Assembly (NCBI GenBank): GCA_964503265.1
Contig: CAZCYO010000004.1
Location: 162,157-226,156 of the forward strand
Source of the DNA: an uncultured Gammaproteobacteria bacterium
GTDB taxonomy: Bacteria > Patescibacteriota > Microgenomatia > Levybacterales > UBA12049
DNA: 64,000 nucleotides
Reading direction: 5' to 3'
Each line of letters begins with the position of its first letter. Within the stretch, counting starts at the first letter, position 1. This document shows, piece after piece, positions 4,811 to 56,656 of this stretch. The notes beneath the pieces were generated by a model that was not told the DNA's origin, ran no database searches, and saw nothing but the letters and a program-made list of their open reading frames with translations. The translations under genes were made by a program, and so were the position numbers.

Positions 4811-5680
4811 TTGTCAGTCTTTTTCTTATTATTTTTGTATCTATTTTTCTATGTTTTTTCAGTGACAGTAAAAGTACCGCAAAGAATGTATAACATCGCC
4901 CATGAGTCGATTAATGATACTTTGATACATATTCTTTTGCGATATAAACGAATTACCGAACACTATTCATTGACGATATATCATTCACGTTTAGATAATT
5001 TCCTTGATTCTTCTGAGGTGATTGATTATTCTAGTAGTATGTTCGTTTCTGCCCAATTACTTTCACTTATCATTCCATACCTGGCACTTGTCGTTATTAC
5101 GACAACACCCATTTCAGAATTTCACGTTCCCATTCTAGGATTAGTCACGTTCTTTTATCTTCTTTTTTCTTTTATCTCGCGTAAGAAAACTCATTCAGAT
5201 AACCAAACGCAAAATCTTACAACCTCAGCAATTATTCTTTTTTTAGTACTCTCTGTAATATCGCTTACGGGCGGAACCGCTTCGTTATTTTTCTTTCTTC
5301 TCTATTTTATGGCCTTTTTAATTGCTTTCACAGCACCACCTGAAGCTGTGTTCGTCTTTGCAGCCACGACTGTATTATTCTACCTTTTCTTGGAAGGACG
5401 AACTGTTGAATCGTTCTCCCTCTCACTCCATCTTATGTCTGTCGTTCTACTTTCCCCGCTTGCATACTTTTTTGGGAAAGAATTTCAAGAACAAGCAAAA
5501 CAAAAAGTAGAACATGATCGAAATGAGCAGAAGAAAGAGAGTGCAACGACAAATATAAGCAATGACGTGATAGAAGTGCTAAAAGATAACAGAGCCACAC
5601 TAAGTGATGAAAGTGTCGAAAAACTTAATGATATCCTCGAAGAAGCAGAAGAAATACGAGAAATTGATGGCATCAAGTAG
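4811..5680 (+). CDS. hypothetical polytopic membrane protein with acidic coiled-coil C-terminus
   Basis: Long ORF with several hydrophobic helices; no recognisable family. Confidence 0.35.
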   Translation: MSVFFLLFLYLFFYVFSVTVKVPQRMYNIAHESINDTLIHILLRYKRITEHYSLTIYHSRLDNFLDSSEVIDYSSSMFVSAQLLSLIIPYLALVVITTTPISEFHVPILGLVTFFYLLFSFISRKKTHSDNQTQNLTTSAIILFLVLSVISLTGGTASLFFFLLYFMAFLIAFTAPPEAVFVFAATTVLFYLFLEGRTVESFSLSLHLMSVVLLSPLAYFFGKEFQEQAKQKVEHDRNEQKKESATTNISNDVIEVLKDNRATLSDESVEKLNDILEEAEEIREIDGIK

Positions 5681-6449
5681 TATGTATAGAGTAGTATGTA
5701 TCATTACTTATCAGGCGAAATTATTAATTCTTCTTGTCCTACTTGCGACATGCTACTTGCTACTTGCTACAATACAATCCCATGCATTTACCATGAGTAA
5801 TGGGAATTGGATTATCCAGATGGGAAACCTTAATTCGGCAGCAGGAAAACCATCAAATAGCAACTTCAAGCTTGGAGTGACAGTCGGAGAAAATGGTCGA
5901 GGGCTTTATACGGGAACGAATTACAAAGTACGAGCAGGATTCCAATATATTAGTTCGATTATTCGATTTAGGTTTAGTATTTCAAACCTCCTTATCGACT
6001 TTGGAACACTCACACCAACTAATCCTGTTAAAAGAACGAATACATTGACAGTCACTAATGGCTCTGCAAACGGATATGCTGTAACCGCATTTGAAAACCA
6101 CCAACTCCTCGTTCCGGCCTCAGGGGTACTCATACCAGATACAACGTGTGACACTGGGCTCTGCACCGAAAGCACCGCTGCCTCATGGCCTGATTCAAGT
6201 ATTCTTGTGTATGGATTTGGCTATCGTTGTGATAACCTCTCAGGCACAGATTGTAGTACCTTCTCGACTGACTATTATAAGCAGTTCGCTGATGATTCAA
6301 AAGCAGAGACGCCACAGACTGTTATGTCTAGTCTTCTGGTGGGCAAAAATCGACAGGCGCAAATAACGTACAAAGTAAACATATCAGGTACACAGGCAGC
6401 TGGAAGGTACTCAAATGTGATTACCTATATCGCAACACCGACATACTAA
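5661..6449 (+). CDS. secreted protein, short member of the C-terminal ...TYIATPTY family (paralog of the three large proteins downstream)
   Basis: Signal-peptide-like N-terminus (LLILLVLLATCYLLLATIQSHA). C-terminus GRYSNVITYIATPTY parallels YRTMFTYVATATF in the downstream genes. Start chosen at an internal Met; the ORF track starts at 5604. Confidence 0.4.
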   Translation, partial: KLMASSSMYRVVCIITYQAKLLILLVLLATCYLLLATIQSHAFTMSNGNWIIQMGNLNSAAGKPSNSNFKLGVTVGENGRGLYTGTNYKVRAGFQYISSIIRFRFSISNLLIDFGTLTPTNPVKRTNTLTVTNGSANGYAVTAFENHQLLVPASGVLIPDTTCDTGLCTESTAASWPDSSILVYGFGYRCDNLSGTDCSTFSTDYYKQFADDSKAETPQTVMSSLLVGKNRQAQITYKVNISGTQAAGRYSNVITYIATPTY

Positions 6450-6507
6450 TGTGCGGAGTTAGTAGATAAAAGTTGGGAGTTAGGAGTTAGAATAATTACT
6501 AATACAT

Positions 6508-7530
6508 ATGAAAAAAATAATATTGTTTCTTTTTCTATCTCCTATCTCCTATCTCCTATCTCCGATGCCTTCAGCTTTCGCCGAAGGCATTGATCTTGGC
6601 ATCTATCCTCCAATTATTCAAATAGATAGTACTCCTCCTTCTAGTATAAAAGCTCCTCTGGCTATAGAAAATAATAGTGAATCAGATGTAACTGCGACAA
6701 TCCAATATAAACTCTTTCGTCCCTCTAAAGATGAAAACGGTACTATTACGTATCTAACAGGAAAAGAAGCCGTGCCATCCCCAGATCCCCTTCTGTTTCA
6801 AAAAGTCCAAGTGATGGAAAATGATCATGTCGTCACAGCGGTCAAACTCGCTCCTGGTCAACAAAAAAACCTTGAGGTTCATATCGGCATTGATAAAGCT
6901 GCAGTTCCAGCCGATTACTACTTTTCAATCGTTTTTTTAGCCAAACAATCAGATACATACCAAAGTAGTAGTGACACTAGCCTCGATAATCAAAATGCGA
7001 CGATAACAACTGGTGGAGTTGCGACAAATGTTCTCCTCTCAATTGGTCCAAAAGGCAAACCAACTGGTAAAATTAGTGAATTTTCGAGCTCACCATTTGT
7101 CAGTAGTGGACCTCTCCCCTTTACGCTTAGAGTTGAAAACACGAGTAATCATAGCATTGCACCAAGTGGGTCTATCTTTATTAAGAATATTTTTGGTCAG
7201 TATGTTGGGAAAGTCGATATCTTACCTGCAACTATTCTTTCTCACAGTACCCGTGCACTCACTGATACAAAAAGTATTGATGAAAATACCGCATCTAGTT
7301 TTTACCAGGCAAATCATCCAAATCAAAAACCTATCATGTTGTGGCCAGAAACATTTTTAGTCGGGCCATATACAGTCGGTGTCTATGTAAAACTTTCAGA
7401 TGAAGGCCCAATCATTACAAGAACACTCTATTTTTTTGCATTCCCCTGGCAAGGTGTAATCGTACTCATAATACTCCTTCTAATGGGCATCATTGTACGT
7501 GAAAAAGTGAAAAAAAGACTACACGGTTAA
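6508..7530 (+). CDS. cell-surface protein with signal peptide and C-terminal transmembrane anchor (CscA/DUF916-like architecture)
   Basis: N-terminal signal peptide and a C-terminal hydrophobic helix followed by a basic tail (IVLIILLLMGIIVREKVKKRLHG). Paralog of 9034..10110. Confidence 0.5.
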   Translation: MKKIILFLFLSPISYLLSPMPSAFAEGIDLGIYPPIIQIDSTPPSSIKAPLAIENNSESDVTATIQYKLFRPSKDENGTITYLTGKEAVPSPDPLLFQKVQVMENDHVVTAVKLAPGQQKNLEVHIGIDKAAVPADYYFSIVFLAKQSDTYQSSSDTSLDNQNATITTGGVATNVLLSIGPKGKPTGKISEFSSSPFVSSGPLPFTLRVENTSNHSIAPSGSIFIKNIFGQYVGKVDILPATILSHSTRALTDTKSIDENTASSFYQANHPNQKPIMLWPETFLVGPYTVGVYVKLSDEGPIITRTLYFFAFPWQGVIVLIILLLMGIIVREKVKKRLHG

Positions 7531-7537
7531 TTCATCC

Positions 7538-7572
7538 TTGACAAGTTAATTCTTTTATCGCAATACTGGAGT
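7538..7572 (+). promoter_or_regulatory. sigma70-like promoter (TTGACA-N17-CAATAC) directly abutting the start codon of 7573, possibly a leaderless mRNA
   Basis: TTGACA at 7538..7543; A/T-rich -10-like hexamer about 17 nt downstream. Confidence 0.4.
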
Positions 7573-8994
7573 ATGTTAAGAAATATTATATCTAAGATTG
7601 TGCTTGTATTGACACTTCTGCCTTTACTAGGTGTCTTCGTTCATACCGCAGAAGCAGCGACATTGTCAGCAGTTAAAGATACCATTACTACTTCTCGCCC
7701 ATCAGCTTCATGGTATCTCTCAAGTGACTATGCCACGACAGACACGACTGTTTCAATGACCGGTAATTCTACTTCACGCTATCTTGCCTCAGATTCTGCT
7801 CGACTCATTAGTGGCAATGGAACACCTCTTGGAAGCGCTGTAGTCGTTGCTTCACAATCTGCAGACTTAAAAACAGTGTATCTGGCCAACAGTAGTGGAA
7901 CTGCTGCTAAAACACCTTCAGATATCTTAATCGTACCGATTACAGCTAAACATACCTTTGTCTTTACGACTGTTACTTCTGTTGCATCTACTGGAAAGAT
8001 TGTCATCACCTTTCCTGGGTCTGGATCTAACATTGCTTCTCCCTCTGCTTCCACCTTCTCTTTTAATGGTCTTGCGAGTGCCAACATTAACACCACGTTT
8101 AGCTCAGGCACAACCACGTGTGGATCATATACCATCAGTGCTCCAACTATTACGTGTAACTTAGCTACTGCTGGTATTAACCCAGGTGTTACTGTCACGA
8201 TGGTTATTGGTAATTCAACCCCTGCCCTTATTAACCCTACTAAGTCAAATACTGCAGGTAGCAACGATTCGTGGAGAGTTACTGTGCAAACAACAGATAG
8301 TGGTGGCCTTGTGCTTGATGATGCGAAAATTGCGATTGGCACGATTGACTCTGTTAAAGTTACGGCTGATGTCGATCCATCACTTACGTTTACCATTGCG
8401 GGTGTAGCACCAGGCACAACGTTAAGTGGTATTAGTTCAACGACGAGTGTGTGTGGAGACACGACTACGGCTGGATTGCCAGCTGCAACAGCAACAGAAG
8501 TGAACCTAGGCTCACTTCGTAATGCAGCGATTAGTATAGCTGCACAGCGATTAACAGTCTCAACCAATGGTGCACAAGGATACACGATCTCTGCTACCTC
8601 TAGTGGCCGTATGATTAATCCTGCTACTGGTTTCTGGCTCTATGGATTAAATGGTGACACATTGCTCTCAGCTAATGATACCCCTGTCCCAGCAACCTTT
8701 AGGGCATCTGGATTTGAGGGCTTTGGCATCTCAGCATGTGGATCTCACTCAAGCACAATTGTGAGTAGCCAATGGGGTGGTAATGCATGTGCAACAGGAT
8801 TTTCAAGTGGCTGTAAGTATTCTAATCCGTACAATGTAGGAACAGCATCATTCTACTCAACAATCACATCCTATACTGGTGGCGCCGTCTCCTCTGATGA
8901 CACGATTGTAAAGTATGCAGGCACCGTCTCAGGAACCACACCTCCAGGTACGTACCGAACGATGTTTACTTATGTTGCCACTGCGACGTTTTGA
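7573..8994 (+). CDS. secreted Ser/Thr-rich surface protein with conserved C-terminal domain (FWLYGL ... YRTMFTYVATATF), possible WxL-like wall-binding protein
   Basis: Signal peptide. Near-identical paralog at 10191..11624 and more distant paralog at 11684..13093. C-terminal motif sits at the extreme C-terminus. Confidence 0.55.
   Translation: MLRNIISKIVLVLTLLPLLGVFVHTAEAATLSAVKDTITTSRPSASWYLSSDYATTDTTVSMTGNSTSRYLASDSARLISGNGTPLGSAVVVASQSADLKTVYLANSSGTAAKTPSDILIVPITAKHTFVFTTVTSVASTGKIVITFPGSGSNIASPSASTFSFNGLASANINTTFSSGTTTCGSYTISAPTITCNLATAGINPGVTVTMVIGNSTPALINPTKSNTAGSNDSWRVTVQTTDSGGLVLDDAKIAIGTIDSVKVTADVDPSLTFTIAGVAPGTTLSGISSTTSVCGDTTTAGLPAATATEVNLGSLRNAAISIAAQRLTVSTNGAQGYTISATSSGRMINPATGFWLYGLNGDTLLSANDTPVPATFRASGFEGFGISACGSHSSTIVSSQWGGNACATGFSSGCKYSNPYNVGTASFYSTITSYTGGAVSSDDTIVKYAGTVSGTTPPGTYRTMFTYVATATF
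8097..8840 (+). repeat. about 745-nt block essentially identical to 10727..11470 (offset 2630 nt) inside the tandem paralogs. Flanking parts of the two genes are clearly diverged.
   Basis: Identity begins at tttagctcaggcacaaccacgtgtggatc in both copies and decays near ggaacagc(a/t)tcattctactc. Confidence 0.8.
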
Positions 8995-9033
8995 TCTATT
9001 GCAACAATCTAAGATACTTGTAAGAATAATAGT

Positions 9034-10110
9034 ATGATTCAAATAACTGCCCAGTCAAAAGAATTACTAAAACAACCTGTTATGTCGACATTTAAAGTTG
9101 GAATAACTGTTGGTTTTATGGCAGTAACGCTCTTAGCTGCTTCACCATTTGCAATGTCTCTTTCCCCTTCTTCACAAGCTCATGCTCAATCAGTTAGAAC
9201 CATGACAATTGTTCCACCTACCGTTCAACTAGAACTAAATCCTGGGGAGACAACAGAAGGCACGATGAAGATTATTAATGATAGTGATGAGCCTCTTGAT
9301 CTTTCAGTCATGATGCAAGATTTTATCGTGGATAATAAAAATAGTATCCCAAATATCTTAACGCCTGATACTCTTTCTAATAAATATTCTGCGTCTGCCT
9401 GGATTGGTATTGATCAAATGCTTTTTAGTGTCCAACCGACAAAAACACAGCAACTCCACTACTATGTTCAGGTCCCTAAAAATGCTCGTCCTGGAGGCCA
9501 TTACGCTGCGAGTATTTTTAGTCCAAAGACTGAGAGCCAAGCAAATGGATCAGGAGCTGTCGTTAATTCACAAATAGGAACTCTTTTCTATATTACAGTC
9601 AAAGGTCCTGTTACCCAAAAAGCAACAGTTGAATCATTTACTGCACCAGGATTCTCCGAATACGGTCCTGTGGCTATTACCACAAATATTAAAAACAGTA
9701 GCGATATTCATATTCAACCAAACGGTATGATTACTGTTAAAAATATGTTTGGTCAAACAAGAGAACAGCTCTCTTTTAGCGGGAAAAATATTTTTCCTGA
9801 AGCTGTTCGTGAATTCGTCCATGAAGCAGGTAAAAAATCATTTATGATTGGACGATACACAGCCACTCTTAATGCATACTACGGTAGTAATCATGATCTC
9901 CCACTTGTCGCAACTGTTGCTTTCTGGGTTATCCCATGGAAGATTATCGTCGTGATTACACTTGCAATTATTGCAGCTGTACTTGGCTATCTCGCTATGA
10001 AGAAAAGAAATACAACACCAGAGGAACCAAAAGAACAGCAACCAACTGAATCAGCTACTCACGAAGAAGGAATAAAATCTCAAACAGATGCAGCTCCACA
10101 ACATGAGTAA
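9034..10110 (+). CDS. cell-surface protein with signal peptide and C-terminal TM anchor plus Pro/Glu-rich tail (paralog of 6508..7530)
   Basis: Signal peptide AVTLLAASPFAMS and C-terminal helix IIVVITLAIIAAVLGYLAMKKRN. Domain order shared with 6508..7530. Confidence 0.5.
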   Translation: MIQITAQSKELLKQPVMSTFKVGITVGFMAVTLLAASPFAMSLSPSSQAHAQSVRTMTIVPPTVQLELNPGETTEGTMKIINDSDEPLDLSVMMQDFIVDNKNSIPNILTPDTLSNKYSASAWIGIDQMLFSVQPTKTQQLHYYVQVPKNARPGGHYAASIFSPKTESQANGSGAVVNSQIGTLFYITVKGPVTQKATVESFTAPGFSEYGPVAITTNIKNSSDIHIQPNGMITVKNMFGQTREQLSFSGKNIFPEAVREFVHEAGKKSFMIGRYTATLNAYYGSNHDLPLVATVAFWVIPWKIIVVITLAIIAAVLGYLAMKKRNTTPEEPKEQQPTESATHEEGIKSQTDAAPQHE

Positions 10111-10154
10111 TCGGGTTATAAATTCTCCAAAGGTTAAATAAATGTCTTAAATCC

Positions 10155-10190
10155 TTGACCAAAATATACATTTTCTGTTTAGATTAGTAT
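10155..10190 (+). promoter_or_regulatory. sigma70-like promoter (TTGACC-N17-...TAGATT) upstream of 10191
   Basis: Positional analogue of the 7538 promoter in front of the duplicated gene. Confidence 0.35.
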
Positions 10191-11624
10191 ATGCGTTTTT
10201 ATTCAAACTCACTTATACTGAGCTTTCTCAGTATAATAGTACTTTTTCTCGGTGTTCACCCAGTAGAGGCAGCGACATTATCAGCAGTAAAAGATACTAT
10301 TACTACTTCCCGCCCATCAGCTTCATGGTATCTCTCCAGTGACTATGCAAGTACCGATACAACAGTATCTCTAAGTACTAATAGCTTATCCCGCTATCTC
10401 GCGTCTGACTCTGCTCGGCTTATCTCCCCTGGAACACCCGCAACAGGAGCGGTTCCTCTTGGAAGTAGTGTCGTTATCGCTTCTCAATCTGCAGATTTAA
10501 AAACAGTGTATCTAGCCAACAGTAGTGGAACTGCGGCAAAAACACCTTCAGATATATTAATAGTACCGATTACTGCCAAACATACAGTTGTCTTTACCAC
10601 GGTTACTTCTGTTGCATCTACCGGAAAAATCGTCATTACATTCCCAGGAAGTGGTTCTAACATTGCATCACCATCTGCATCAACATTTTCCTTTAACGGA
10701 TTAGCAAGTGCTAACATTAGTACGACCTTTAGCTCAGGCACAACCACGTGTGGATCATATACCATCAGTGCTCCAACTATTACGTGTAACTTAGCTACTG
10801 CTGGTATTAACCCAGGTGTTACTGTCACGATGGTTATTGGTAATTCAACCCCTGCCCTTATTAACCCTACTAAGTCAAATACTGCAGGTAGCAACGATTC
10901 GTGGAGAGTTACTGTGCAAACAACAGATAGTGGTGGCCTTGTGCTTGATGATGCGAAAATTGCGATTGGCACGATTGACTCTGTTAAAGTTACGGCTGAT
11001 GTCGATCCATCACTTACGTTTACCATTGCGGGTGTAGCACCAGGCACAACGTTAAGTGGTATTAGTTCAACGACGAGTGTGTGTGGAGACACGACTACGG
11101 CTGGATTGCCAGCTGCAACAGCAACAGAAGTGAACCTAGGCTCACTTCGTAATGCAGCGATTAGTATAGCTGCACAGCGATTAACAGTCTCAACCAATGG
11201 TGCACAAGGATACACGATCTCTGCTACCTCTAGTGGCCGTATGATTAATCCTGCTACTGGTTTCTGGCTCTATGGATTAAATGGTGACACATTGCTCTCA
11301 GCTAATGATACCCCTGTCCCAGCAACCTTTAGGGCATCTGGATTTGAGGGCTTTGGCATCTCAGCATGTGGATCTCACTCAAGCACAATTGTGAGTAGCC
11401 AATGGGGTGGTAATGCATGTGCAACAGGATTTTCAAGTGGCTGTAAGTATTCTAATCCGTACAATGTAGGAACAGCTTCATTCTACTCAACAATCACCTC
11501 CTATACTGGTGGTGCTGTCTCAGCTGATGACACGATTGTAAAGTATGCAGGCACAGTATCCGGCACCACACCTCCAGGTACGTACCGAACGATGTTTACC
11601 TATGTTGCCACTGCGACATTCTAG
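10191..11624 (+). CDS. secreted surface protein, tandem paralog of 7573..8994
   Basis: About 745 nt (10727..11470) are essentially identical to 8097..8840 at nucleotide level. C-terminus PPGTYRTMFTYVATATF. Confidence 0.55.
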   Translation: MRFYSNSLILSFLSIIVLFLGVHPVEAATLSAVKDTITTSRPSASWYLSSDYASTDTTVSLSTNSLSRYLASDSARLISPGTPATGAVPLGSSVVIASQSADLKTVYLANSSGTAAKTPSDILIVPITAKHTVVFTTVTSVASTGKIVITFPGSGSNIASPSASTFSFNGLASANISTTFSSGTTTCGSYTISAPTITCNLATAGINPGVTVTMVIGNSTPALINPTKSNTAGSNDSWRVTVQTTDSGGLVLDDAKIAIGTIDSVKVTADVDPSLTFTIAGVAPGTTLSGISSTTSVCGDTTTAGLPAATATEVNLGSLRNAAISIAAQRLTVSTNGAQGYTISATSSGRMINPATGFWLYGLNGDTLLSANDTPVPATFRASGFEGFGISACGSHSSTIVSSQWGGNACATGFSSGCKYSNPYNVGTASFYSTITSYTGGAVSADDTIVKYAGTVSGTTPPGTYRTMFTYVATATF

Positions 11625-11683
11625 CTACAAATAGCCAACCAGAATCTAGCAAAAAGAGATAACTTACGTTACTATAATTAGGT

Positions 11684-13093
11684 ATGGTAAAAAAATCTTT
11701 TTCTGTTATAGCAACCGTATCTGTTAGCTTCGTTCTACTACTTTTATGTACCCCTTTTGCCCATGCTGCAACGCTGTCTGCTGTCTCTGATAAACTGTCC
11801 ACATCCAGACCTTCAGCTTCAGCATATATAAACGCTGCATATGGATCAAGCGACTCAGTTGTAACGATTGTTAACAACGGTTCGCGATATCTTGCTTCTG
11901 ATTCTGCACGTATTATTGGCTCGCCTGGAAATGTGATTGGCAATCAAGTCACAGTCGCGTCACAATCTGCTGATTTAACAGGTGTGTATCTTGCTAATAG
12001 TACAGGCACTGCTGCTGGCTCCAGTACGTATAAAGATCTTCTGATTGCTCCTATCACCGCCAAGCACACTATTAGTTTTACGACTATTAATGCTGTGGCT
12101 GCAGGTGGAAAGATTGTCATTACATTCCCGGGTACAGGCTCTAATATAGCCTCTCCATCCGCATCAACGTTCTCATTTAATGGACTTACTTCTGGAAATA
12201 TTAGTTACTCTCCAAGTGCAGGATCAAGTACTTGCTCCTCATTTGTGATTAGTGCACCAAGCATTACCTGTACGATAGCTACGGCAACGCTCGATGCAGG
12301 AGTGACGGTGACACTCACGCTTGGCAGTTCAACGCCAGCACTGATAAATCCAACTAAATCAGGTACAGCAGGCACGAATGATGCATGGACAATGACTATT
12401 CAAACAACTGATTCAGGAGGAGTTACCATTGATGATGCGAGAATTAGTATTGGTACGATAGAGACAGTCAAAGTCTCAGGAGATGTTGATCCATCACTCA
12501 CCTTTTCAATCGCCGGAATCGCTGCTAGTACCTCATTTTCATCTCAAGTAAGCTCATGTAATGGTTCAGATTCCACTCAAAATACTCCTTCTTCATCAGC
12601 TACTGATGTTAGTCTGGGTTTCTTACGAAATGGCTCTATCAATATCGCAGGCCAAGTGCTAACAGTGTCTACGAACGGTTCTCAAGGATATACAATTTCA
12701 GCCACAAGTAGTGGTCAGTTTATCAATCCGTCAACAGGCTACTGGATTTATGGACTCAACAGTGATACAGCCTTAAGTGGGAACGATACGCCTGCCCCAG
12801 CTACATTTCGAGCAAGTGGACTTGAAGGGTTTGGATTATCAGCGTGTGGAAGTAGAGTAACAGCTGGGACATGGGGTGCGACTAACTGTACAACTGCGTT
12901 TAGTAGTGGGTGTAAATACTCAAACCCATTTAATACAGGCACTAACTCGTACTATGCAACCTTAGCAAGCTACTCGGGTGGCGCAATCTCAAACGAACAA
13001 ACAGCAGTTAAGTACGCAGGTAGTATTTCAGGAGCCACAGCACCGGGAACCTACAGAACCATGGTTACGTATGTCGCCACTGCTACATTCTAA
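11684..13093 (+). CDS. secreted surface protein, third paralog of the FTYVATATF family
   Basis: Same length and architecture, signal peptide, YWIYGL motif, C-terminus YRTMVTYVATATF. Confidence 0.55.
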   Translation: MVKKSFSVIATVSVSFVLLLLCTPFAHAATLSAVSDKLSTSRPSASAYINAAYGSSDSVVTIVNNGSRYLASDSARIIGSPGNVIGNQVTVASQSADLTGVYLANSTGTAAGSSTYKDLLIAPITAKHTISFTTINAVAAGGKIVITFPGTGSNIASPSASTFSFNGLTSGNISYSPSAGSSTCSSFVISAPSITCTIATATLDAGVTVTLTLGSSTPALINPTKSGTAGTNDAWTMTIQTTDSGGVTIDDARISIGTIETVKVSGDVDPSLTFSIAGIAASTSFSSQVSSCNGSDSTQNTPSSSATDVSLGFLRNGSINIAGQVLTVSTNGSQGYTISATSSGQFINPSTGYWIYGLNSDTALSGNDTPAPATFRASGLEGFGLSACGSRVTAGTWGATNCTTAFSSGCKYSNPFNTGTNSYYATLASYSGGAISNEQTAVKYAGSISGATAPGTYRTMVTYVATATF

Positions 13094-13149: not shown

Positions 13150-14091
13150 TCAATATCCCACAAACCAGGCATGATGTAATAGTTTCCGTGGTTTTCCGCT
13201 AATAAAATAGACTAGCCTATTACTATATATCCATGTGAAGCGTTCAGGCCATATTCTAATGATAAGCAGTGGGATAAGAATAATAAATGGAAGAGCCAAC
13301 CATAATGCGCCAAATGGAATACCAATGAGAAATTTCCATACTTTATCTAGCAGTTCACGCACCCATTTGATAAATTGCTCCCATAGAGGCAGTGATTTAA
13401 GCGTGAGAGTTCGACTTGGTTGCTCTGAGTCTTTTCCATTATATGTAGCATCAGCAAAAAGTGAATAACTCCCGGCTGGAACGTTATCGATAATCACTTC
13501 GTAGTAACCATCGGAGTCAGCTCTCGTCGTAATAATCTTGCCATTAATATGAAGCCGTACAAGGGCTAATGGCATAGTATACCCATACGCCTTTGCATTG
13601 GTGCCAGATGCAATCTCTGCACGCTCTAGCGCCAACGTAGGCGGCAGGAAGATATCTTTCATGGTAATATCTCCAGTTGCAGGTGGAAAGGTAAAACAAG
13701 TGAATGATTCACCTATGTTATGGTAGTCTTTGGCTAAAATACAAAATCCTGAAAACCCAATTTTTATTTGAATACCACTTAACGAGAAGTTACCAAATTT
13801 ATCTGCAACAGTAGAACGATAAAAAACCCCATTTGACGTTAATACGAGTGACGCATATGGTGAAATAAAACCAGACACATTAAGGAAGTACTCACCCACT
13901 GTCGCACTTACCGTAACAGGTGGTGATGTCAGTGAACGCTTAGCAGCAAGCGACAGAGAAGAAGTTATATGAAGGAAAAAAGAAAGAAGAATACAGGCAA
14001 GGACTACCGATGAAATCCCCTTTTTCTTGCTTACGTCTGGTGAACTACTAGATTCATTCCTATTGAAAAATCCCATAATATAATTAGGCAT
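13150..14091 (-). CDS. membrane-anchored surface protein with carboxypeptidase-regulatory-like beta-sandwich segment
   Basis: N-terminal TM, DSDGYYEVIIDNVPAGSY-type motif, C-terminal TM helices. Confidence 0.35.
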   Translation of the reverse strand: MPNYIMGFFNRNESSSSPDVSKKKGISSVVLACILLSFFLHITSSLSLAAKRSLTSPPVTVSATVGEYFLNVSGFISPYASLVLTSNGVFYRSTVADKFGNFSLSGIQIKIGFSGFCILAKDYHNIGESFTCFTFPPATGDITMKDIFLPPTLALERAEIASGTNAKAYGYTMPLALVRLHINGKIITTRADSDGYYEVIIDNVPAGSYSLFADATYNGKDSEQPSRTLTLKSLPLWEQFIKWVRELLDKVWKFLIGIPFGALWLALPFIILIPLLIIRIWPERFTWIYSNRLVYFISGKPRKLLHHAWFVGY

Positions 14092-15350: not shown

Positions 15351-18300
15351 ATGAATTACATACAGCAATTTAAATCATATCTAGAGACTTCACAAAAGGC
15401 CTCTGTAGCTACAGTGAAGAATTATCTGAGTGATATCCGTAAATTTCAACACTGGCTAGAGACAAAGTCTGGTGAAGCATTTAATCCAACACTCGTTACC
15501 TCAGGGCGTATTGAGGAGTTTAAAGCTGAGATGAGAGAGTTATCTGTTAACTCATCTGATCGATACATCTCCTCCCTGCGAAAGTTTTATGCCTATCTGA
15601 TGACTGAAAACCTCGTGAGTAGTAATCCATTTGCAAGTGAAGATACAAAACAAAAAACTCTCACAAGTGATCCGTATCATCTCAAAGGGTTTAAGAATAG
15701 TTTGTATGAAGCAAACGCTTCTGAACCTACGATCAAAAACTATCTGGCTGATGTTAACCAATTTCTCATGTGGGGTGAGGAAGTTGCGATTAACAAGCAA
15801 TCACATATCGAAAGTGATAAAAACCTTCTTTCCAAGCTCAGCACAAAACTGATTGAAGAATATAAACAACGTCTTCATCACACAGCACATCTCTCACCTG
15901 TTTCTATCAACCGCAAACTCTCCTCTATTCGCAAATATCTAGCCTTTCTGCTAAACCAAGGCGTTGTTGATGCTGTCCCATTTGTGATAAATGCAAAACA
16001 GCACGAATTTTCACAAGAAGAAACTGCAGGGATAAGCGATAATCCCACAGAGGCATCGAGCTCGATAGAATCCAACATAAATGGAAATTCTATCCAGCCA
16101 CTCCAGAAGGAAAAGCTTGATCAAGAAGATCTTAACGTTAATCGCTCTCCTCTAAACCCCTCTAAGACATACTCTTCTTTTGGCCCACTTCGACTCTTCC
16201 AACGAATTGGCGGCCTTAGCAATTTCATATTTGATTTGCTAATGATCTTGCCTCTTGTGAAAATTATTGAGCATGCTCAATACCTATTCGTTAAATTGTC
16301 GGGAAAAGGTATTTTCACAGCAGCTGAAGCTAATATGCAATCAGCTAGTCTAGCTAGCAGAACGGCTGTTAAAGCGATAAATACAGTAGAAGAACTGATA
16401 TCTCAAAGAGCAAGTAGATCTCAAGTAAAAGGAATTCACCATTTCATTACCAGAGATAAAAAAACACTTGCTGATTTTGGATTCCGTGTTTCAAACCTCC
16501 CAAAAGAGATGTATGCGCCAATTTCTTTAACAAATCTTCCCTTTCATAAAAAAATGTGGCACCACATACGATTTACTCGCCCAAACTGGTATCGAAAATA
16601 TCATTCCTATGCGATTACTCACTACTTTCACTTCGCAATTTTAATGATCGTCGTAACAACACTTGGTGTTGGTGTGTATAATGGCGTCTTTAATAAAGCA
16701 CGGGAAACCAAAACGCTCGCTGCTCCCCCTACTGCGCCGCCGCGAATCCTCTCATTCCAAGGGAGACTGACTGATGCATCTGATAATCCAATAACCGCAA
16801 CTACCAATTTGCGGTTTACGATTTATAATGACCTCTCTGCATCAGGCTCAGCAAAACTTTGGGAAGAGGTCAAAACGACTACTCCAGACACTGATGGTAT
16901 TTTTAATACGTATCTGGGACAAGGAACTGTCATTCCTTCAACTGTTTTCACAGATAATGCATCACTTTACCTGGGTATCACAGTCGGCACGAACGATACT
17001 GAGCTGACACCTCGACAACAAATTGCAACTGTTGCATTCGCCGCAAACTCAGAAACACTCCAAGGTCTTCTTCCAAGTACTGGGGCCGGTGCGGGAACGA
17101 CTAATGTTGTGTTGGCGCTCGACTCATCGGGGAACCTTACGATTGGTGGTTCTGCTACCCCTACGTTTCAAGCAAGCGGCGGTCAGTTCACCCTTTCGGG
17201 TACTGTTCTTAAGCTAACGACAACCACTGGTTCAAACAGTAATATACAAATCACACCTGATGGCCTGGGTAAAATCGATATTCAGAAAGCAATGTATAAT
17301 GGCACTCTCTTCTCTCAATTGCCAACTGCGGCTGGAGCTGTCAACGTCGACGATCTCTTCGCAGTAAATGCGACATCTTCTGGTCAATCTGCATTCACGT
17401 TAAATCAGAACAGCACAGGACCATTAATTAGCGCTTCTGTCTCAGGAGTTGCCAAATTTACTGTCGATAATGCAGGAGCTGGAACATTTGCGAGTGATTT
17501 GGCTGTAAACGGAACAAGCATAACCACAAGCCAGAGTTCATTTAATTTATTAAACACAAACGCAGGAACACTTAACTTCGCTGGAGCATCGACAACCCTG
17601 ACGATTGGCGGGACAACTGGCACACTCGCGCTAAGGAACCCCGCTATTACACTTGGAGGTGGTTCAGCTACAACGATTCAAACGGCAAGTAGCCAAACCT
17701 TAACAATTGGAGGAAGCACAACCGGAGATATCATCGTTGGCCCACAGAACGGTGCTGCAGGCGGAACGCTTCGCCCTTCGACAAATAATGCAGTTGATTT
17801 AGGTACTGCTTCATTTGCCTATCGAAATCTCTATGTAAATAACATTATTGGCGCCTCAACTGGAGTCAATGGCTATTGGCAAAGAAATGCAAATGCTATC
17901 TCCCCTGCTAATATAACTGATGATGTACTGATCGGCGCAATTGCAACGAGTTCAGCTAAAATCCGTCTCGGAGGGACAACAAATGCAGACTCTTTCTTCA
18001 ATACAGGAGGAAATGTAGGGATTGGTACCACAACGATTGGATCAAAACTGACTATAGATGCCGGTGCTCTCCGCTTTACTGGTACAGGAGCATTCGGTAC
18101 GGGTACGGATGCTGGCGTTGTGGGAACCGGTGGTATTTCGGGAAGCCTTCAGTTCATTACGGCTGGTAATACGGCTGGCACAATTACAAATGCTGGTAAC
18201 CTCGGTATTGGTACGACCATAGTCAACTCGAAACTCCAAGTATATGGAACAACGAGTGGTAATGCGCTGGCTATGTTCGACCAACGAACGCTTAATGCTG

Positions 18301-47825: not shown

Positions 47826-48034
47826 AAGAGAGAGTGTATTTTAGAAAAGAATAGTTTTCTAGGTACTACCTGCAGTGTTTCGAATCCACTTCGAGATAGC
47901 GCTGGTGGTGCCTGGAAAGGAGCTAGCAAAGAAAGGAGGAAACATTAGATACGACAAGTCGTCGCATCTTATTCCCTGCTTTCCACGCGCCACTAACTAA
48001 CGTCGTTACTGTATAAATTCGGAGGCGCCAAATT

Positions 48035-48667
48035 ATGTTTCGCCGATTCGCACCCCTAGCGCTCGCGTTGATCCTCACCCTGGGTACTGTTACATCCGCA
48101 CTCGCGGGTGGCTTATACCCGGACGTGTCGGACAACGACAGCCGCATAGTGGCGATCCAGTGGATCACCTCTATGGGAGCCATGACTGGTTACACCGACA
48201 AGCGGTTTGGCGTTAATGACAACGTCACCCGCGGGGAGATGGCAAAAATCCTCGGGGTTATCCTCGGCGTTCAGCCCCAAATCGGGGCTACGTGCTTCAA
48301 CGATATGGGATCCTACGATCCTACGCTGCGAGCGTACGCCTGTAAGCTGGCCCAAATGGGCCTACTGAAAGGCTATGCCGACGGCCGATTCGGGCCAAAC
48401 GATCCAATCTCGCTAACGCAGATGATATCACTCATCGTGAGGGCGAAAGTCGCCTCTGGCGACTGGGTAGCCGTCACGACGGATGATCCCTCGATCTACC
48501 CGAACGTAACGACCATGAGTACCAGGCTCGAGATACTGACGTATCTCGAGCATCAGATTCAGGTGCCCAAGTCGCCCAATGTCCACGGGAATCTGAATGG
48601 AGCGTACGCACCGGTGACTCGCGGCGATGCCGCTTGGTACTTAATGCTTAGCTTCTACAAGACGTAA
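48035..48667 (+). CDS. secreted protein with S-layer-homology (SLH) domains; first gene of the high-GC mosaic region
   Basis: Signal peptide ALALILTLGTVTSALA. SLH-like segments GYTDKRFGVNDNVTRGEMAKIL and GYADGRFGPNDPISLTQMISLIVRA. G+C far above the window background. Confidence 0.6.
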   Translation: MFRRFAPLALALILTLGTVTSALAGGLYPDVSDNDSRIVAIQWITSMGAMTGYTDKRFGVNDNVTRGEMAKILGVILGVQPQIGATCFNDMGSYDPTLRAYACKLAQMGLLKGYADGRFGPNDPISLTQMISLIVRAKVASGDWVAVTTDDPSIYPNVTTMSTRLEILTYLEHQIQVPKSPNVHGNLNGAYAPVTRGDAAWYLMLSFYKT

Positions 48668-48678
48668 GTTCACGGCTA

Positions 48679-48722
48679 GTCCGCCACATAGTGGGGCCTA
48701 CCGGCTCTACTGTGTGGCGGAC
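48679..48722 (+). terminator. long terminator-like hairpin after the SLH gene
   Basis: gtccgccacatagtgg / ctactgtgtggcggac forms a roughly 15-bp stem 12 nt after the stop codon, followed by a C/T-rich tract. Confidence 0.5.
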
Positions 48723-48902
48723 AACGCCACTTTCTTCTCTAAATACAGATTTTTAATACCTTTCTATGAACGAGTAATAATTGCATTACTCCCTTCAAAC
48801 AAAAACTAAATAAAATCGAGTTACTCCTCTCTCTTGTTATAATTTTCCTCATTTGACATCACTTCTCCTCTTTTCTATGCTTATTCTAGGTAGTATTTTC
48901 TT

Positions 48903-48932
48903 CTTGACAAAGTCTTATAGGAGATACTATAC
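48903..48932 (+). promoter_or_regulatory. conserved promoter module copy (TTGACA-18-TATACT)
   Basis: tcTTGACAaagtcttataggagatacTATACT. Confidence 0.55.
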
Positions 48933-49024
48933 TGCCGCTACGTTTTATTATCACTGAATATCTTCATTGCTTGATATATCCGTGACATAAAACAGCATCG
49001 TTACCACCAGCTCAAGCTAAATAA

Positions 49025-49093
49025 GGTTTACCCCTAACGTAGCTTTAGCCCCGATTGAATCGGGGTTAGCGAAGTGGGGCTCTTTAACAAGGC
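49025..49093 (+). repeat. element B, a 3'-half copy of the same family carrying an inserted 16-nt palindrome
   Basis: ggtttacccctaacgtagctttagc[cccgattgaatcggggttagc]gaagtggggctctttaacaaggc. Compare the 3' half of C. Confidence 0.5.
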
Positions 49094-56649: not shown

Positions 56650-56656
56650 CCCATTT

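What the first reader, a model, noticed from the sequence alone, without database searches (positions are those of the whole stretch)
5604..13093. Six-gene surface-protein cluster with Csc/WxL-like logic: anchor proteins alternating with secreted proteins sharing an extreme C-terminal motif
Genes 6508..7530 and 9034..10110 have a signal peptide plus C-terminal TM anchor with basic tail. Genes 7573..8994, 10191..11624 and 11684..13093 (and the short 5661..6449) have a signal peptide, Ser/Thr-rich regions and a conserved C-terminal roughly 150 aa. That C-terminal region contains GFWLYGL/GYWIYGL and ends exactly in YRTMFTYVATATF, YRTMVTYVATATF or NVITYIATPTY. The anchor-plus-C-terminal-wall-binding arrangement recalls Firmicutes csc clusters (DUF916 anchor + WxL-domain proteins). 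Those have a proximal WxL motif and a distal Y-x3-hydrophobic-T-W-x-L motif at the C-terminus. Here the distal motif would be Y-x3-F-T-Y-V, a loose fit. A terminal aromatic residue is also reminiscent of beta-barrel or donor-strand proteins. Either way this is a dedicated, internally paralogous envelope-decoration locus.
Basis: partly seen in the sequence, partly recalled or inferred. Interest (0 to 1): 0.6.

Follow-up and report, generated by a model that had tools for sequence, protein, structure and literature searches.

The report
Chaperone-assembled Pam-type pilus operon, CPR bacterium
This gene cluster most likely builds thin surface filaments (Pam-type pili, first described in 2026) in an ultrasmall CPR bacterium, and its membrane-tethered assembly chaperones are detectably related to the 'WxL-interacting' surface proteins of Gram-positive gut bacteria.

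Summary
Window 5.0–14.1 kb holds a tightly packed, internally paralogous cluster of exported proteins. It has eight genes, not six: M, T, C1, P1, C2, P2 and P3 on the + strand, and a convergent R. The best reading is a Pam-type pilus operon of a CPR/Patescibacteria (Microgenomatia-like) bacterium. This usher-less, donor-strand-exchange system was first described in bioRxiv 10.64898/2026.03.03.709456. Three two-domain pilins and one single-domain tip-like subunit share a C-terminal domain. That domain hits NCBIfam's Pam pilin and PamT models significantly, but below their curated cutoffs. The two 'anchors' are two-Ig-domain, PapD/CsuC-like proteins with a C-terminal membrane helix. R has the architecture of the PamR terminator/anchor. 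The anchors are true DUF916/WxLIP homologues (55 of 59 family members hit PF06030; hhalign 96%; Foldseek hits solved E. faecium WxLIP). The secreted proteins are not WxL-domain proteins by Pfam or hhalign, and the solved WxL chain is absent from the top 50 Foldseek matches. This is a new member of a very recently described kind. The Pam-chaperone/WxLIP homology appears in neither literature I could search, and it is the most interesting by-product.

The parts
5039..5680 (+). M: conserved polytopic membrane protein (213 aa from the ATG at 5039; the mechanical ORF starts at 4811). It has an invariant FFLLYF motif and an acidic C-terminal coiled-coil tail (EKLNxILEE). It is the first gene of the module and its role is unknown.
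   Evidence: Present immediately upstream of T in every related locus examined. Alignment A6 of 7 orthologues has 61% mean column identity. There is only a weak DUF6057 hit. Its stop overlaps the T start by 14 nt.
5667..6449 (+). T: PamT-like single-domain subunit (260 aa). It has a signal peptide (…IQSHA|FT), a ~55-aa conserved N-terminal segment and a pilin-type C-terminal domain ending in …TYIATPTY. It has no NTD and no linker strand. Proposed tip/initiator.
   Evidence: NCBIfam NF058579 CPR_pilus_PamT E 8.7e-13 (48 bits, cutoff 240) and NF058581 E 1e-8. hhalign T family vs pilin CTD 98.5%, E 3e-15. More than 1300 homologues at 57-90% identity among the 120 listed, the most conserved component. 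The family ends in F/Y in 109 of 120.
6508..7530 (+). C1: membrane-tethered chaperone-like protein (340 aa). It has a signal peptide, two Ig-like beta-sandwich domains (30-147 and 170-311), a C-terminal TM helix (314-339) and a basic tail. Candidate donor (G1-like) strand is 170-179 GVATNVLLSI followed by GPKGK, preceded by a low-confidence loop at 151-167.
   Evidence: AF2 model pLDDT 90.4, pTM 0.81. Foldseek hits: WxLIP 9i25_C 3.8e-10, 9i1y 6.8e-10, CsuC/CfaA/Caf1M/SafB/FimC 1e-9 to 3e-7, RbmA 5e-11. PF06030 in 55 of 59 family members. hhalign vs Firmicutes WxLIP 96.3%. N174/L176/L177/S178/G180 are at least 93% conserved.
7573..8994 (+). P1: two-domain pilin (473 aa). Signal peptide (…TAEA|ATLSAV), NTD beta-sandwich, conserved linker strand (VKVTADVDP), CTD ending in -TYVATATF-COOH.
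   Evidence: NF058581 CPR_Pam_pilin_C E 3.6e-6 over res 306-473, covering the whole 148-position model. 94.8% identical to P2 and 64% to P3. In the single-pilin relatives, this slot between C1 and C2 holds the only pilin gene.
9034..10110 (+). C2: second membrane-tethered chaperone-like protein (358 aa), 26% identical to C1. Signal peptide, two Ig-like domains, TM at ~289-324, then a 34-aa charged cytoplasmic tail.
   Evidence: PF06030 E 0.0069. Aligns with C1 over 285 aa. A second, C2-type gene follows the pilin in all related loci that extend that far.
10191..11624 (+). P2: two-domain pilin (477 aa), near-duplicate of P1. An extra pilin copy not present in the related loci examined.
   Evidence: NF058581 E 4.3e-6. 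94.8% identical to P1. Related loci carry a single pilin gene.
11684..13093 (+). P3: two-domain pilin (469 aa), the diverged third paralogue. NTD 28-258, linker 259-268 (VKVSGDV), CTD 270-469.
   Evidence: AF2 model pLDDT 83 with CTD >90 and linker residues 263-268 <50. NF058581 E 2.7e-4 for P3 itself, and 55 of 56 family members hit it, best 8.4e-11. More than 527 homologues, all 120 listed ending in Phe. Conservation peaks at the linker (261-280) and across the CTD.
13150..14091 (-). R: convergent 313-aa protein with PamR-like architecture. Signal peptide, conserved first mature strand (PVTVSATVGEYFLNVSG), two Ig-like domains with invariant Cys117/Cys132, a TM helix, and a cytoplasmic tail ending in LHHAWFVGY. 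Proposed terminator/membrane anchor of the fibre.
   Evidence: Syntenic in all loci that extend that far. The family has 626 representative clusters at E<=1e-3. Alignment A3. Weak CarboxypepD_reg/Big hits. Only 1 of 53 members hits NF058578 PamR, at E 0.0038. The similarity of its first strand to the pilin linker is only suggestive (hhalign P 0.006, probability 6%; HMM scores no better than shuffles).
8098..8846 (+). Exact 749-nt tract shared by P1 and P2 (the second copy is at 10728-11476). It covers the end of the NTD, the linker and most of the CTD.
   Evidence: Direct comparison. The flanks differ mainly at synonymous sites: 39 synonymous vs 4 non-synonymous codons on the 5' side, 11 vs 1 on the 3' side. 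This fits gene conversion between older paralogues, or less likely an assembly collapse.
10728..11476 (+). Second copy of the exact 749-nt tract, inside P2.
15351..27347 (+). Conserved neighbour rather than a demonstrated part: a giant 3998-aa surface protein with an N-terminal Phage_int_SAM-like domain. It probably corresponds to the 'tail fibre-like protein' that the Pam preprint finds next to pam operons.
   Evidence: PF02899 E 7.7e-18. Orthologous giants follow R in L002, L072, L076 and L080. The one in L072 carries Peptidase_S74. Preprint neighbourhood analysis.

Best explanation
The locus is a Pam-type pilus operon of a CPR (Patescibacteria, Microgenomatia-like) bacterium. It would build a surface filament by chaperone-assisted donor-strand exchange, with no usher, no sortase and no ATPase.

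Proposed steps:
(1) All eight products are membrane or Sec-exported proteins. This is shown by signal peptides and TM helices.
(2) C1 and C2 stay tethered to the single cell membrane by their C-terminal helix. Their two Ig-like domains face outward. They capture newly exported subunits by inserting a beta-strand into the incomplete C-terminal Ig-like domain. The likely strand is the conserved 170-179 NVLLSI strand that follows a flexible loop. This step is inferred from the fold, from homology to WxLIP, and from the published Pam and WxLIP models.
(3) T has the C-terminal domain but no N-terminal domain or linker. It would start the fibre and end up at the distal tip (inferred).
(4) Pilins P1-P3 add at the base. 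The conserved inter-domain linker strand (V-x-V-x-x-x-V, residues 259-268) of each incoming pilin would replace the chaperone strand in the groove of the previous subunit (inferred by analogy with the cryo-EM structures of PamA and PamB).
(5) The strictly conserved free C-terminus (-T-Y-V-A-T-A-T-F-COOH) is probably the edge strand and carboxylate that the chaperone reads, as in chaperone-usher pilins (inferred).
(6) R has an N-terminal strand, two Ig-like domains and a TM helix. It would cap the base and anchor the fibre in the membrane (inferred, weakest step).

The three pilin genes are a lineage-specific expansion of a one-pilin core. The core order is M-T-C1-P-C2 with a convergent R.
For: Sequence links to Pam:
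- T hits NF058579 PamT (E 8.7e-13) and NF058581.
- P1-P3 hit NF058581 Pam_pilin_C across the whole model (E 4e-6 to 3e-4).
- 55 of 56 pilin-family members hit NF058581, best 8.4e-11, and nothing else hits consistently.

Architecture:
- The AF2 pilin model has an NTD sandwich, a low-confidence linker and a high-confidence CTD, as described for PamA and PamB.
- T is the CTD only (hhalign 98.5%), as described for PamT.
- C1 is two Ig-like domains plus a TM helix (pLDDT 90). Its Foldseek matches include the chaperone-usher chaperones CsuC, CfaA, Caf1M, SafB, FimC and CupB2 (E 1e-9 to 4e-7, TM ~0.5 normalised to the target) and WxLIP bound to WxL. This matches the preprint's membrane-anchored PapD-like PamC and PamD.
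- The inventory (1 T, 2 chaperones, 3 two-domain pilins, 1 R-like TM protein) equals that of M. amalyticus (PamT, PamC/D, PamA/B/E, PamR).

Conservation:
- Information content peaks at the linker (261-280) and the CTD, as the preprint reports for Pam pilins.
- The C-terminal Phe is invariant in 120 of 120 pilin homologues.

Context:
- All genes are co-directional with gaps of -14 to 80 nt.
- Synteny LeuRS | M-T-C1-P-C2 | R | giant protein holds in loci whose pilins are only 44-73% identical.
- Named relatives are Levybacteria or Patescibacteria. The preprint reports Pam homologues mainly in Saccharimonadia and Microgenomatia and models a Roizmanbacteria homologue.
- No usher, sortase or LPXTG motif occurs in the cluster.
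Against: - All NCBIfam Pam hits are far below the curated cutoffs (21-48 bits against 55 and 240). By NCBI's rules these proteins would not be named Pam proteins.
- The anchors hit no NCBIfam family consistently (no family in more than 2 of 59 members).
- The R family hits the PamR model in only 1 of 53 members.
- I could not compare with the defining M. amalyticus sequences or with the PamA/PamB structures. 25PZ and 25QA are not in the PDB copy, and the supplement holds no sequences.
- Monomer AlphaFold models cannot show strand exchange, and no complex prediction was possible.
- The similarity between the pilin linker and the first strand of R is not statistically significant.
- No ATP-synthase genes turned up among the window's ORFs that I scanned, although the preprint finds them commonly near pam operons.
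- The founding description is itself a preprint. Its chaperone, tip and terminator roles are AlphaFold-based proposals, not experiments.
Confidence: 0.8

Rival explanations
1. One reading: a Csc/WxL-type surface complex. The secreted proteins bind non-covalently to the cell wall through their C-terminal domain. A DUF916/WxLIP membrane protein holds them there, forming a non-filamentous adhesive decoration.
For: The anchors are genuine DUF916/WxLIP homologues. The gene logic (small domain-only protein, large proteins with a C-terminal domain, two-Ig TM protein) mirrors WxL clusters. CPR bacteria are monoderm with peptidoglycan, so wall binding is physically possible.
Against: No WxL domain is found. 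0 of 56 members hit PF13731. hhalign gives 0.6-3.3% against a validated WxL set. There is no dual W-x-L motif, and the 9i25 WxL chain is not in the top 50 Foldseek hits. The subunits hit the Pam pilin and PamT models instead. A highly conserved inter-domain linker strand and an invariant free C-terminal Phe are explained by polymerisation and chaperone read-out, not by wall binding. The wall-binding role of WxL/WxLIP is itself largely an in silico proposal.
Confidence: 0.1
2. A non-polymerising adhesin set. C1 and C2 are permanent membrane stalks, each displaying one T or P subunit by stable strand complementation. R and the giant protein are independent adhesins. The result is a short display complex rather than a long fibre.
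For: The solved WxLIP-WxL complex (9i25) shows such a 1:1 complex can be stable. The chaperone-like proteins are membrane-anchored and present in two types. Nothing in my data demonstrates polymerisation directly.
Against: The strongly conserved linker strand between NTD and CTD has no role in a 1:1 complex. The T-type subunit specifically lacks that strand, which makes sense only if subunits are ordered in a chain. Homologous PamA and PamB form long filaments, by cryo-EM. Pilin gene amplification with gene conversion fits a high-copy structural subunit.
Confidence: 0.07
3. The C-terminal domain with its terminal aromatic residue is an outer-membrane beta-barrel or beta-signal, making these outer-membrane proteins or autotransporter-like.
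Against: The CTD is confidently predicted as a compact soluble beta-sandwich of about 200 aa, not a barrel. The sequence context and relatives are CPR bacteria, which have no outer membrane. No BamA/usher-like gene is in the cluster.
Confidence: 0.01

Closest known systems
Pam pili of Candidatus Mycosynbacter amalyticus (PamA/B/E pilins, PamT, PamC/D chaperones, PamR); bioRxiv 10.64898/2026.03.03.709456; NCBIfam NF058578, NF058579, NF058581
   Same: CPR host. The pilins are two-domain: NTD sandwich, conserved linker strand and a CTD that hits the Pam_pilin_C model. There is a single-domain PamT-like subunit (best hit PamT, E 8.7e-13). There are two PapD-like chaperones with C-terminal TM helices, and an R-type two-Ig-domain TM protein. 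There is no usher or sortase. A giant 'tail-fibre-like' protein is the neighbour. The component count is the same (1 T, 2 C, 3 P, 1 R). Cysteine-containing, Ser/Thr-rich subunits are consistent with the disulfides and O-glycosylation reported for PamA.
   Different: All hits are below NCBIfam's curated cutoffs, which fits a distant (Microgenomatia-type) branch. The preprint quotes ~21% identity for a Roizmanbacteria homologue. The three pilins here are recent paralogues (64-95% identical, with a 749-nt gene-conversion tract), not deeply diverged PamA/PamB/PamE classes, and related genomes have only one pilin. A conserved polytopic membrane protein (M) heads the operon, and I did not find an equivalent described in the parts of the preprint I read. 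R has almost no sequence similarity to PamR. No ATP-synthase genes were found among the window's ORFs that I scanned. The gene order differs.
Firmicutes WxL / Csc clusters (small WxL + large WxL + WxLIP = DUF916-DUF3324-TM); PMC1534035, PMC9772566, PMC10599100; PDB 9i1y, 9i25
   Same: The anchor/chaperone N-terminal domain is homologous to DUF916 (Pfam 55 of 59; hhalign 96%, E 1e-9). The overall two-Ig-domain plus C-terminal TM architecture is the same, and the fold matches solved WxLIP. The cluster logic is the same (domain-only small protein, larger proteins with that domain at the C-terminus). [quoted passage not shown]
   Different: The client proteins are unrelated by sequence. They have no PF13731, no dual W-x-L motif and hhalign of 3% or less. 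Here the conserved motif sits at the very C-terminus (-ATATF-COOH), whereas the distal WxL motif lies 7-18 residues from the end. The WxLIP hallmark NQIDKxxxYFDLK is absent, appearing as a gap in the profile alignment. The second domain is not detectably DUF3324 by sequence. There is no LPXTG partner. WxL clusters are described as wall-bound complexes, not filaments.
Gram-negative chaperone-usher pili (Pap/Fim, archaic Csu/CupE, CFA/I, Caf1/Saf)
   Same: The two-Ig-domain chaperone fold matches (Foldseek E 1e-9 to 4e-7 to CsuC, CfaA, Caf1M, SafB, FimC, CupB2). Subunits have an Ig-like domain with a conserved C-terminal beta-strand motif ending in an aromatic residue. There is a tip subunit lacking a donor strand and a terminator subunit. 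The proposed mechanism is donor-strand complementation followed by exchange.
   Different: There is no outer membrane and no usher. The chaperones are membrane-tethered rather than soluble. There is no PapD_N/PapD_C sequence signal. The pilins have an extra large N-terminal domain, and the donor strand is an internal linker rather than an N-terminal extension. The fibre is expected to be extended rather than coiled (per the Pam cryo-EM).
Vibrio cholerae RbmA (matrix scaffolding protein, tandem FnIII)
   Same: It is the top Foldseek hit of C1 (E 5e-11). The preprint uses it as the structural analogue of PamR, and R here also has two Ig/FnIII-like domains.
   Different: The TM-scores are low (0.23-0.35). 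RbmA is secreted and soluble, with no TM helix and no pilus role. The match reflects a generic tandem beta-sandwich arrangement.

Membership tests
Pam pilus system (CPR) | [quoted passage not shown] | tested here: met
   AF2 model of P3 has NTD 28-258, a linker with pLDDT<50 at 263-268, and CTD 270-469 with pLDDT>90. Linker and CTD are conservation peaks. The groove itself could not be inspected because no coordinates were available.
Pam pilus system (CPR) | Pilin C-terminal domain scores above the NCBIfam NF058581 curated cutoff (55 bits) | tested here: not met
   P1 27.1, P2 26.9, P3 21.1 and T 35.5 bits. 55 of 56 family members hit significantly (best E 8.4e-11), but that best E-value, set against the listed hits (E 1e-8 at 35.5 bits), implies a score still below 55 bits; per-member scores were not returned. 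Homology is supported; curated membership is not.
Pam pilus system (CPR) | PamT-type subunit: C-terminal pilin domain only, no linker strand | tested here: met
   T aligns to the pilin CTD only (hhalign 98.5%, E 3e-15). Its best NCBIfam hit is PamT at E 8.7e-13, but 48 bits against a cutoff of 240.
Pam pilus system (CPR) | Two PapD/FimC-like chaperones carrying a C-terminal transmembrane helix | tested here: met
   C1 model has two Ig-like domains plus helix 314-339, pLDDT 90. Foldseek hits chaperone-usher chaperones and WxLIP. C2 is paralogous with a TM at 289-324. No family in the NCBIfam library was hit by more than 2 of 59 members.
Pam pilus system (CPR) | PamR: RbmA-like tandem FnIII protein with an extra N-terminal strand and a C-terminal TM helix | tested here: inconclusive
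   R has the same architecture (signal peptide, conserved first strand, two Ig-like domains, TM) and conserved synteny. However, only 1 of 53 family members hits NF058578 (E 0.0038), and no structure model was made for R.
Pam pilus system (CPR) | Subunits polymerise into filaments by donor-strand exchange | not testable with these tools
   This needs multimer prediction or experiment.
Pam pilus system (CPR) | Restricted to CPR/Patescibacteria genomes | tested here: met
   Every homologue that carries an organism name is Levybacteria, Saccharimonadales or 'Patescibacteria group'. Neighbouring genes and synteny are typical of small CPR genomes. The window's own organism name was not recoverable.
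Pam pilus system (CPR) | Neighbourhood with a tail-fibre-like giant protein and ATP-synthase genes | tested here: inconclusive
   The giant protein is present and syntenic. No ATP synthase was found among the window's ORFs that I scanned; the only ATP-synt_ab hit belongs to Rho.
WxL / Csc cluster (Firmicutes) | WxLIP N-terminal domain = DUF916 (PF06030) | tested here: met
   The window proteins are below the gathering score (17.6 and 16.8 against 27.3 bits). At family level 55 of 59 hit, best 5e-9, and hhalign against Firmicutes WxLIP gives 96.3-96.4%, E 1-2e-9.
WxL / Csc cluster (Firmicutes) | WxLIP second domain = DUF3324 and conserved NQIDKxxxYFDLK motif | tested here: not met
   No DUF3324 hit appears among the family's Pfam matches. 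The hhalign alignment stops after the first domain, and the NQIDK motif falls in a gap. The fold-level match to 9i25_C does span both domains (297 columns).
WxL / Csc cluster (Firmicutes) | At least two proteins with a C-terminal WxL domain (PF13731, dual W-x-L motif) | tested here: not met
   0 of 56 pilin-family members hit PF13731 at E<=1. hhalign gives 0.6-3.3% against a validated WxL set. W-x-L occurs at most once per protein.
WxL / Csc cluster (Firmicutes) | Structural identity of the client C-terminal domain with the WxL fold | tested here: inconclusive
Classical chaperone-usher pathway | PapD_N/PapD_C chaperone by sequence, and an outer-membrane usher | tested here: not met
   No PapD or usher Pfam hits occur in any cluster protein or in 59 family members. 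Only the chaperone fold is shared.
Sortase-assembled Gram-positive pili | LPXTG sorting signal on pilins and a pilus-specific sortase | tested here: not met
   No LPXTG motif occurs in any of the eight proteins, apart from one non-terminal VPASG in T. There is no sortase hit in the cluster.

The most novel reading that the evidence does not exclude
The membrane-tethered chaperones of CPR Pam pili and the WxLIP (DUF916-DUF3324-TM) proteins of Firmicutes WxL/Csc clusters may descend from one ancestor. Together they would represent a single, widespread 'monoderm chaperone pathway': an usher-less system in which a membrane-anchored two-Ig-domain protein completes an incomplete beta-sandwich of exported client proteins by strand insertion.

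If so, the long-puzzling WxL clusters of enterococci, listeriae and lactobacilli should be re-examined as chaperone-subunit, and possibly donor-strand-exchange, assemblies rather than simple wall-binding modules. Classical chaperone-usher chaperones could then be seen as the diderm, soluble branch of the same lineage.

In the library I could search, neither the Pam preprint nor the WxL papers mention the other system.
Probability: 0.5. Interest if true: 0.65.

Novelty: new member of a known kind. Interest (0 to 1): 0.42.

Why it matters
CPR bacteria make up a large share of bacterial diversity and most live attached to host cells. The Pam pilus is one of the few attachment structures known for them at molecular level. 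This locus shows how the system looks in the Microgenomatia-type branch: a compact, strongly syntenic core (M-T-C1-P-C2 plus R) next to a giant surface protein. Current curated models would leave it annotated as 'hypothetical'. The locus adds two candidate components (M, and the R family with an invariant cytoplasmic LHHxWFVGY tail). It also shows pilin gene amplification with gene conversion. More broadly, the robust homology between the Pam-type chaperones and Firmicutes WxLIP links a new CPR pilus to a widespread family of Gram-positive surface clusters implicated in virulence and colonisation. It offers a concrete, testable mechanism (donor-strand complementation by a membrane-tethered chaperone) for both.

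Tried and rejected
- Sequence searches of P3, C1 and the profiles A1 and A2 against PDB chains found nothing meaningful. The Pam structures 25PZ and 25QA are not in the copy.
- Foldseek of the whole pilin against PDB gave only generic tandem-Ig matches with low TM-scores: integrins, MSCRAMMs, SafDAA-dsc and TasA.
- The hypothesis 'pilin CTD = divergent WxL domain' was rejected at sequence level.
- The hypothesis 'the first strand of R equals the pilin donor strand' could not be established. Linker-HMM scores on 53 R proteins (median -2.6, max 0.9) are no better than shuffles (95th percentile 0.0). hhalign gives only P 0.006, although the best match repeatedly lands on the first mature strand of R.
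- Promoter and terminator scans were at background level.
- I tried to recover the organism name and the 236,902-bp NCBI contig, without success.
- I looked for M. amalyticus Pam sequences in the preprint supplement and found none.
- I suspected rRNA in the GC-rich part of the window. Rfam found only one tRNA.
- The repeat finder did not report the exact 749-nt tract, which I verified by direct comparison.

Full report
**1. What is in the sequence**

- The three ~470-aa proteins are paralogues: P1 7573-8994, P2 10191-11624 and P3 11684-13093. P1/P2 are 94.8% identical and P3 is about 64% identical to either.
- The short protein T shares only the C-terminal domain with them: 28-29% identity over ~131 aa, and hhalign 98.5%, E 3e-15 at family level.
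- The two 'anchors', C1 (6508-7530) and C2 (9034-10110), are 26% identical over 285 aa. Each has a signal peptide and a single C-terminal hydrophobic helix followed by basic residues.
- The quoted motifs (GFWLYGL/GYWIYGL and the terminal …TYVATATF and …TYIATPTY) are there.
- All predicted signal peptides end in classical A-x-A sites, by direct reading.

There are three corrections.
- T most likely starts at the ATG at 5667 (260 aa). That is how it is called in public assemblies, and it overlaps the stop of the upstream gene by 14 nt.
- The shared domain is about 200 aa in the pilins.
- The conserved module has two further genes, described in section 2.

**2. The module and its conservation**

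Contigs carrying homologues show the same order in every case where the contig is long enough: ComEC-ComEA-LeuRS (minus strand) | M (~212 aa membrane protein) – T – C1 – P – C2 | R (287-329 aa, convergent) | giant surface protein. The pilins in these contigs are 44-73% identical to the window's.
- M (window 5039-5680) is a polytopic membrane protein with an invariant FFLLYF motif and an acidic coiled-coil tail.
- R (13150-14091, minus strand) belongs to a family of 626 representative clusters. It has a signal peptide, a conserved first mature strand (x-V-x-A-x-V-G-E-[YF]-x-L-x-x-S-G) and two Ig-like domains with invariant cysteines. A TM helix and a cytoplasmic tail ending in LHHxWFVGY follow.
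- The relatives examined have one pilin gene, whereas the window has three. P2 and P3 are therefore a lineage-specific expansion.
- P1 and P2 share an exact 749-nt tract (8098-8846 = 10728-11476). The flanks differ almost only at synonymous sites (39 vs 4 and 11 vs 1 codons). This indicates gene conversion between older paralogues under purifying selection.
- Short-read assemblies break exactly at this repeat, which argues that the repeat is genomic.

**3. What the proteins are**

Pfam gives nothing for the pilins.

NCBIfam release 20 contains models for a 'Pam pilus system' of CPR bacteria.
- T hits PamT (NF058579, E 8.7e-13) and the Pam pilin C-domain model (NF058581, E 1e-8).
- P1-P3 hit NF058581 over its whole length (E 4e-6 to 3e-4).
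- 55 of 56 pilin-family members hit NF058581, best 8.4e-11.
- All scores are well below the curated cutoffs, so this is a distant branch that NCBI's pipeline would not name.

The models derive from bioRxiv 10.64898/2026.03.03.709456.
- Cryo-EM of filaments from Ca. Mycosynbacter amalyticus identified the pilins PamA and PamB. Each has an NTD beta-sandwich, a single linker strand and a truncated Ig-like CTD that accepts the neighbour's linker strand.
- AlphaFold-based analysis of the operon proposed a tip subunit PamT (CTD only) and two PapD/FimC-like chaperones with C-terminal TM helices (PamC, PamD). It also proposed a third pilin PamE and an RbmA-like TM terminator PamR, with no usher.
- The authors find homologues mainly in Saccharimonadia and Microgenomatia. 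They model a Roizmanbacteria homologue with ~21% identity.

My AlphaFold models fit this description.
- P3 (pLDDT 83) has an NTD at 28-258, a linker whose residues 263-268 have pLDDT <50, and a CTD at 270-469 with pLDDT >90.
- C1 (pLDDT 90.4, pTM 0.81) has two beta-sandwich domains and a terminal helix.
- Foldseek of C1 against the PDB returns RbmA, the chaperone-usher chaperones CsuC, CfaA, Caf1M, SafB, FimC and CupB2 (E 1e-9 to 4e-7), and the E. faecium WxLIP structures 9i1y and 9i25 ('WxLIP bound to long WxL') at E 4e-10 to 3e-9.
- Conservation along the pilin peaks at the linker and across the CTD, as the preprint reports.
- The C-terminal residue is Phe in 120 of 120 pilin homologues and F/Y in 109 of 120 T homologues.

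**4. The WxL question**

- 55 of 59 anchor-family members hit PF06030.
- NCBI already names some orthologues 'DUF916 domain-containing protein'.

To test the link directly I retrieved 68 Firmicutes loci through the WxLIP motif NQIDKxxxYFDLK. I extracted 62 WxLIP and 77 candidate WxL ORFs and validated the WxL set: 49 of 50 hit PF13731.
- Profile-profile comparison gives 96.3-96.4% probability (E 1-2e-9, ~140 columns, first domain) for the anchors against WxLIP.
- It gives only 0.6-3.3% for the pilin CTD, T or the full pilin against WxL. The negative controls score similarly low.
- The chaperone-like component is therefore homologous between the two systems, while the client domains are not detectably related.

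The published WxL literature describes three components: a small protein that is only a WxL domain, large proteins with a C-terminal WxL domain, and WxLIP. [quoted passage not shown] That is the geometry of chaperone donor-strand complementation in chaperone-usher systems (established knowledge: the PapD/FimC G1 strand runs parallel to the subunit F strand). The authors interpreted it as wall anchoring.

The Pam preprint contains no occurrence of WxL, DUF916, DUF3324 or Csc. I found no paper in the held library that links WxL with donor-strand or chaperone-usher biology.

**5. Mechanism**

I commit to the Pam model as set out under 'best explanation'.

Shown:
- export signals and membrane anchors;
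- domain architectures;
- homology of the subunit CTD to the Pam pilin and PamT models;
- the chaperone fold and its WxLIP homology;
- strict synteny;
- conservation of the linker and of the free C-terminus.

Inferred:
- strand complementation by C1 and C2. The candidate strand is 170-179 GVATNVLLSI plus GPKGK after the disordered loop 151-167, nearly invariant in the family;
- T as initiator/tip;
- linker-mediated donor-strand exchange;
- R as terminator/anchor.

The R inference is the weakest. The resemblance between the pilin linker plus first CTD strand (V-Q-V-Q-A-T-V-E-P-T-L-T-F-T-I-A-G) and the first strand of R (V-x-V-x-A-x-V-G-E-Y-x-L-x-V-S-G) is visually appealing. The best hit falls at that position in many R proteins. 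It is nonetheless not significant by score, and only 1 of 53 R proteins touches the PamR model.

**6. Rivals**

A non-filamentous WxL-type wall-bound complex (0.1), and a non-polymerising display complex (0.07), remain possible because nothing here demonstrates polymerisation. Neither explains the conserved linker strand that T specifically lacks. An outer-membrane barrel reading is excluded by the model and by CPR cell architecture.

**7. Novelty and interest**

The system is known, but only since a 2026 preprint, and its Microgenomatia branch is already mentioned there. The locus is therefore a new member of a known kind.

Points beyond the preprint, as far as I could read it:
- the compact M-T-C1-P-C2/R core and its invariant position next to LeuRS and a giant protein;
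- the M and R families;
- pilin amplification with gene conversion;
- above all, the sequence-level homology of the chaperones to Firmicutes WxLIP.

Overall interest is moderate (0.42). The unifying 'monoderm chaperone pathway' reading would deserve about 0.65 if confirmed.

Noticed in passing
window 8098-8846 and 10728-11476: Exact 749-nt identity between pilin genes P1 and P2. The flanks differ almost only synonymously (39 vs 4 and 11 vs 1 codons). This is probably a recent gene-conversion tract. Short-read public assemblies break at this repeat.
   Followed up: yes
window 5039-5680 (+): A conserved polytopic membrane protein (M) has an invariant FFLLYF motif and an acidic coiled-coil C-terminus (EKLNxILEE). 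It heads the pilus module in every related locus and overlaps the T start by 14 nt. It matches no family and I found no counterpart for it in the Pam preprint. It could be an assembly platform or a regulator.
   Followed up: partly
window 13150-14091 (-), C-terminal 40 residues: The R family has a strongly conserved cytoplasmic tail after its TM helix, ending in LHHxWFVGY at the very C-terminus. This suggests an intracellular partner or signal for the proposed pilus anchor.
   Followed up: partly
window 11684-13093, residues 28-47 of P3 (and the same region of P1/P2): The mature pilin N-terminus (A-[AT]-L-S-A-V-x-D-x-x-x-T-S-R-P-S-A-S) is a second conservation peak, with D36, S41, R42, P43 and S44 invariant. 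The linker donor-strand model does not explain it. It could be an inter-subunit contact, a glycosylation site or a recognition site.
   Followed up: no
window 15351-27347 and 27352-37515 (+): Two adjacent giant ORFs of 3998 and 3387 aa. The first begins with a Phage_int_SAM-like domain (E 7.7e-18) followed by a TM segment and long Gly/Thr/Ser/Ala-rich repeats. The second has no Pfam hit. Orthologous giants follow the pilus module in related genomes, and one carries Peptidase_S74.
   Followed up: partly
window ~48000-62000: A mosaic GC-rich island (0.50-0.70 in patches, against ~0.41 elsewhere; 0.704 at 58500-58999) with few ORFs of 150 aa or more. It encodes secreted or membrane proteins with no Pfam hit at E <= 1e-4. 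These include an Ala/Pro/Thr-rich lipoprotein-like ORF (58458-59294). Two ORFs (54553-55767 and 61055-61903) share VQYF(E/Q)R…H.EN-type motifs; the first has them as a repeat followed by LLGQFG. There is no rRNA. The foreign composition suggests horizontal acquisition.
   Followed up: partly
window 45085-47373 (-) and 48035-48667 (+): A TrwB/TraG-like type IV coupling protein (PF10412, E 4e-10) and a small SLH-domain protein (E 3e-20) lie downstream of the pilus region. Rho, an M23/LysM peptidase and a TPR protein lie between.
   Followed up: no
L005, L006, L019, L025, L036, L037, L056 (Firmicutes loci): In each of these seven loci, three small WxL genes lie in tandem within a few kb of the WxLIP motif match. 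This echoes the pilin-gene amplification seen in the window.
   Followed up: no
window 6508-7530, residues 151-184 of C1: A low-confidence loop (151-167) is followed by a nearly invariant strand NVLLSIGPKGK. In position and pattern it resembles the F1-G1 loop, G1 donor strand and anchoring lysine of PapD-like chaperones, and the flexible hairpin of WxLIP.
   Followed up: partly
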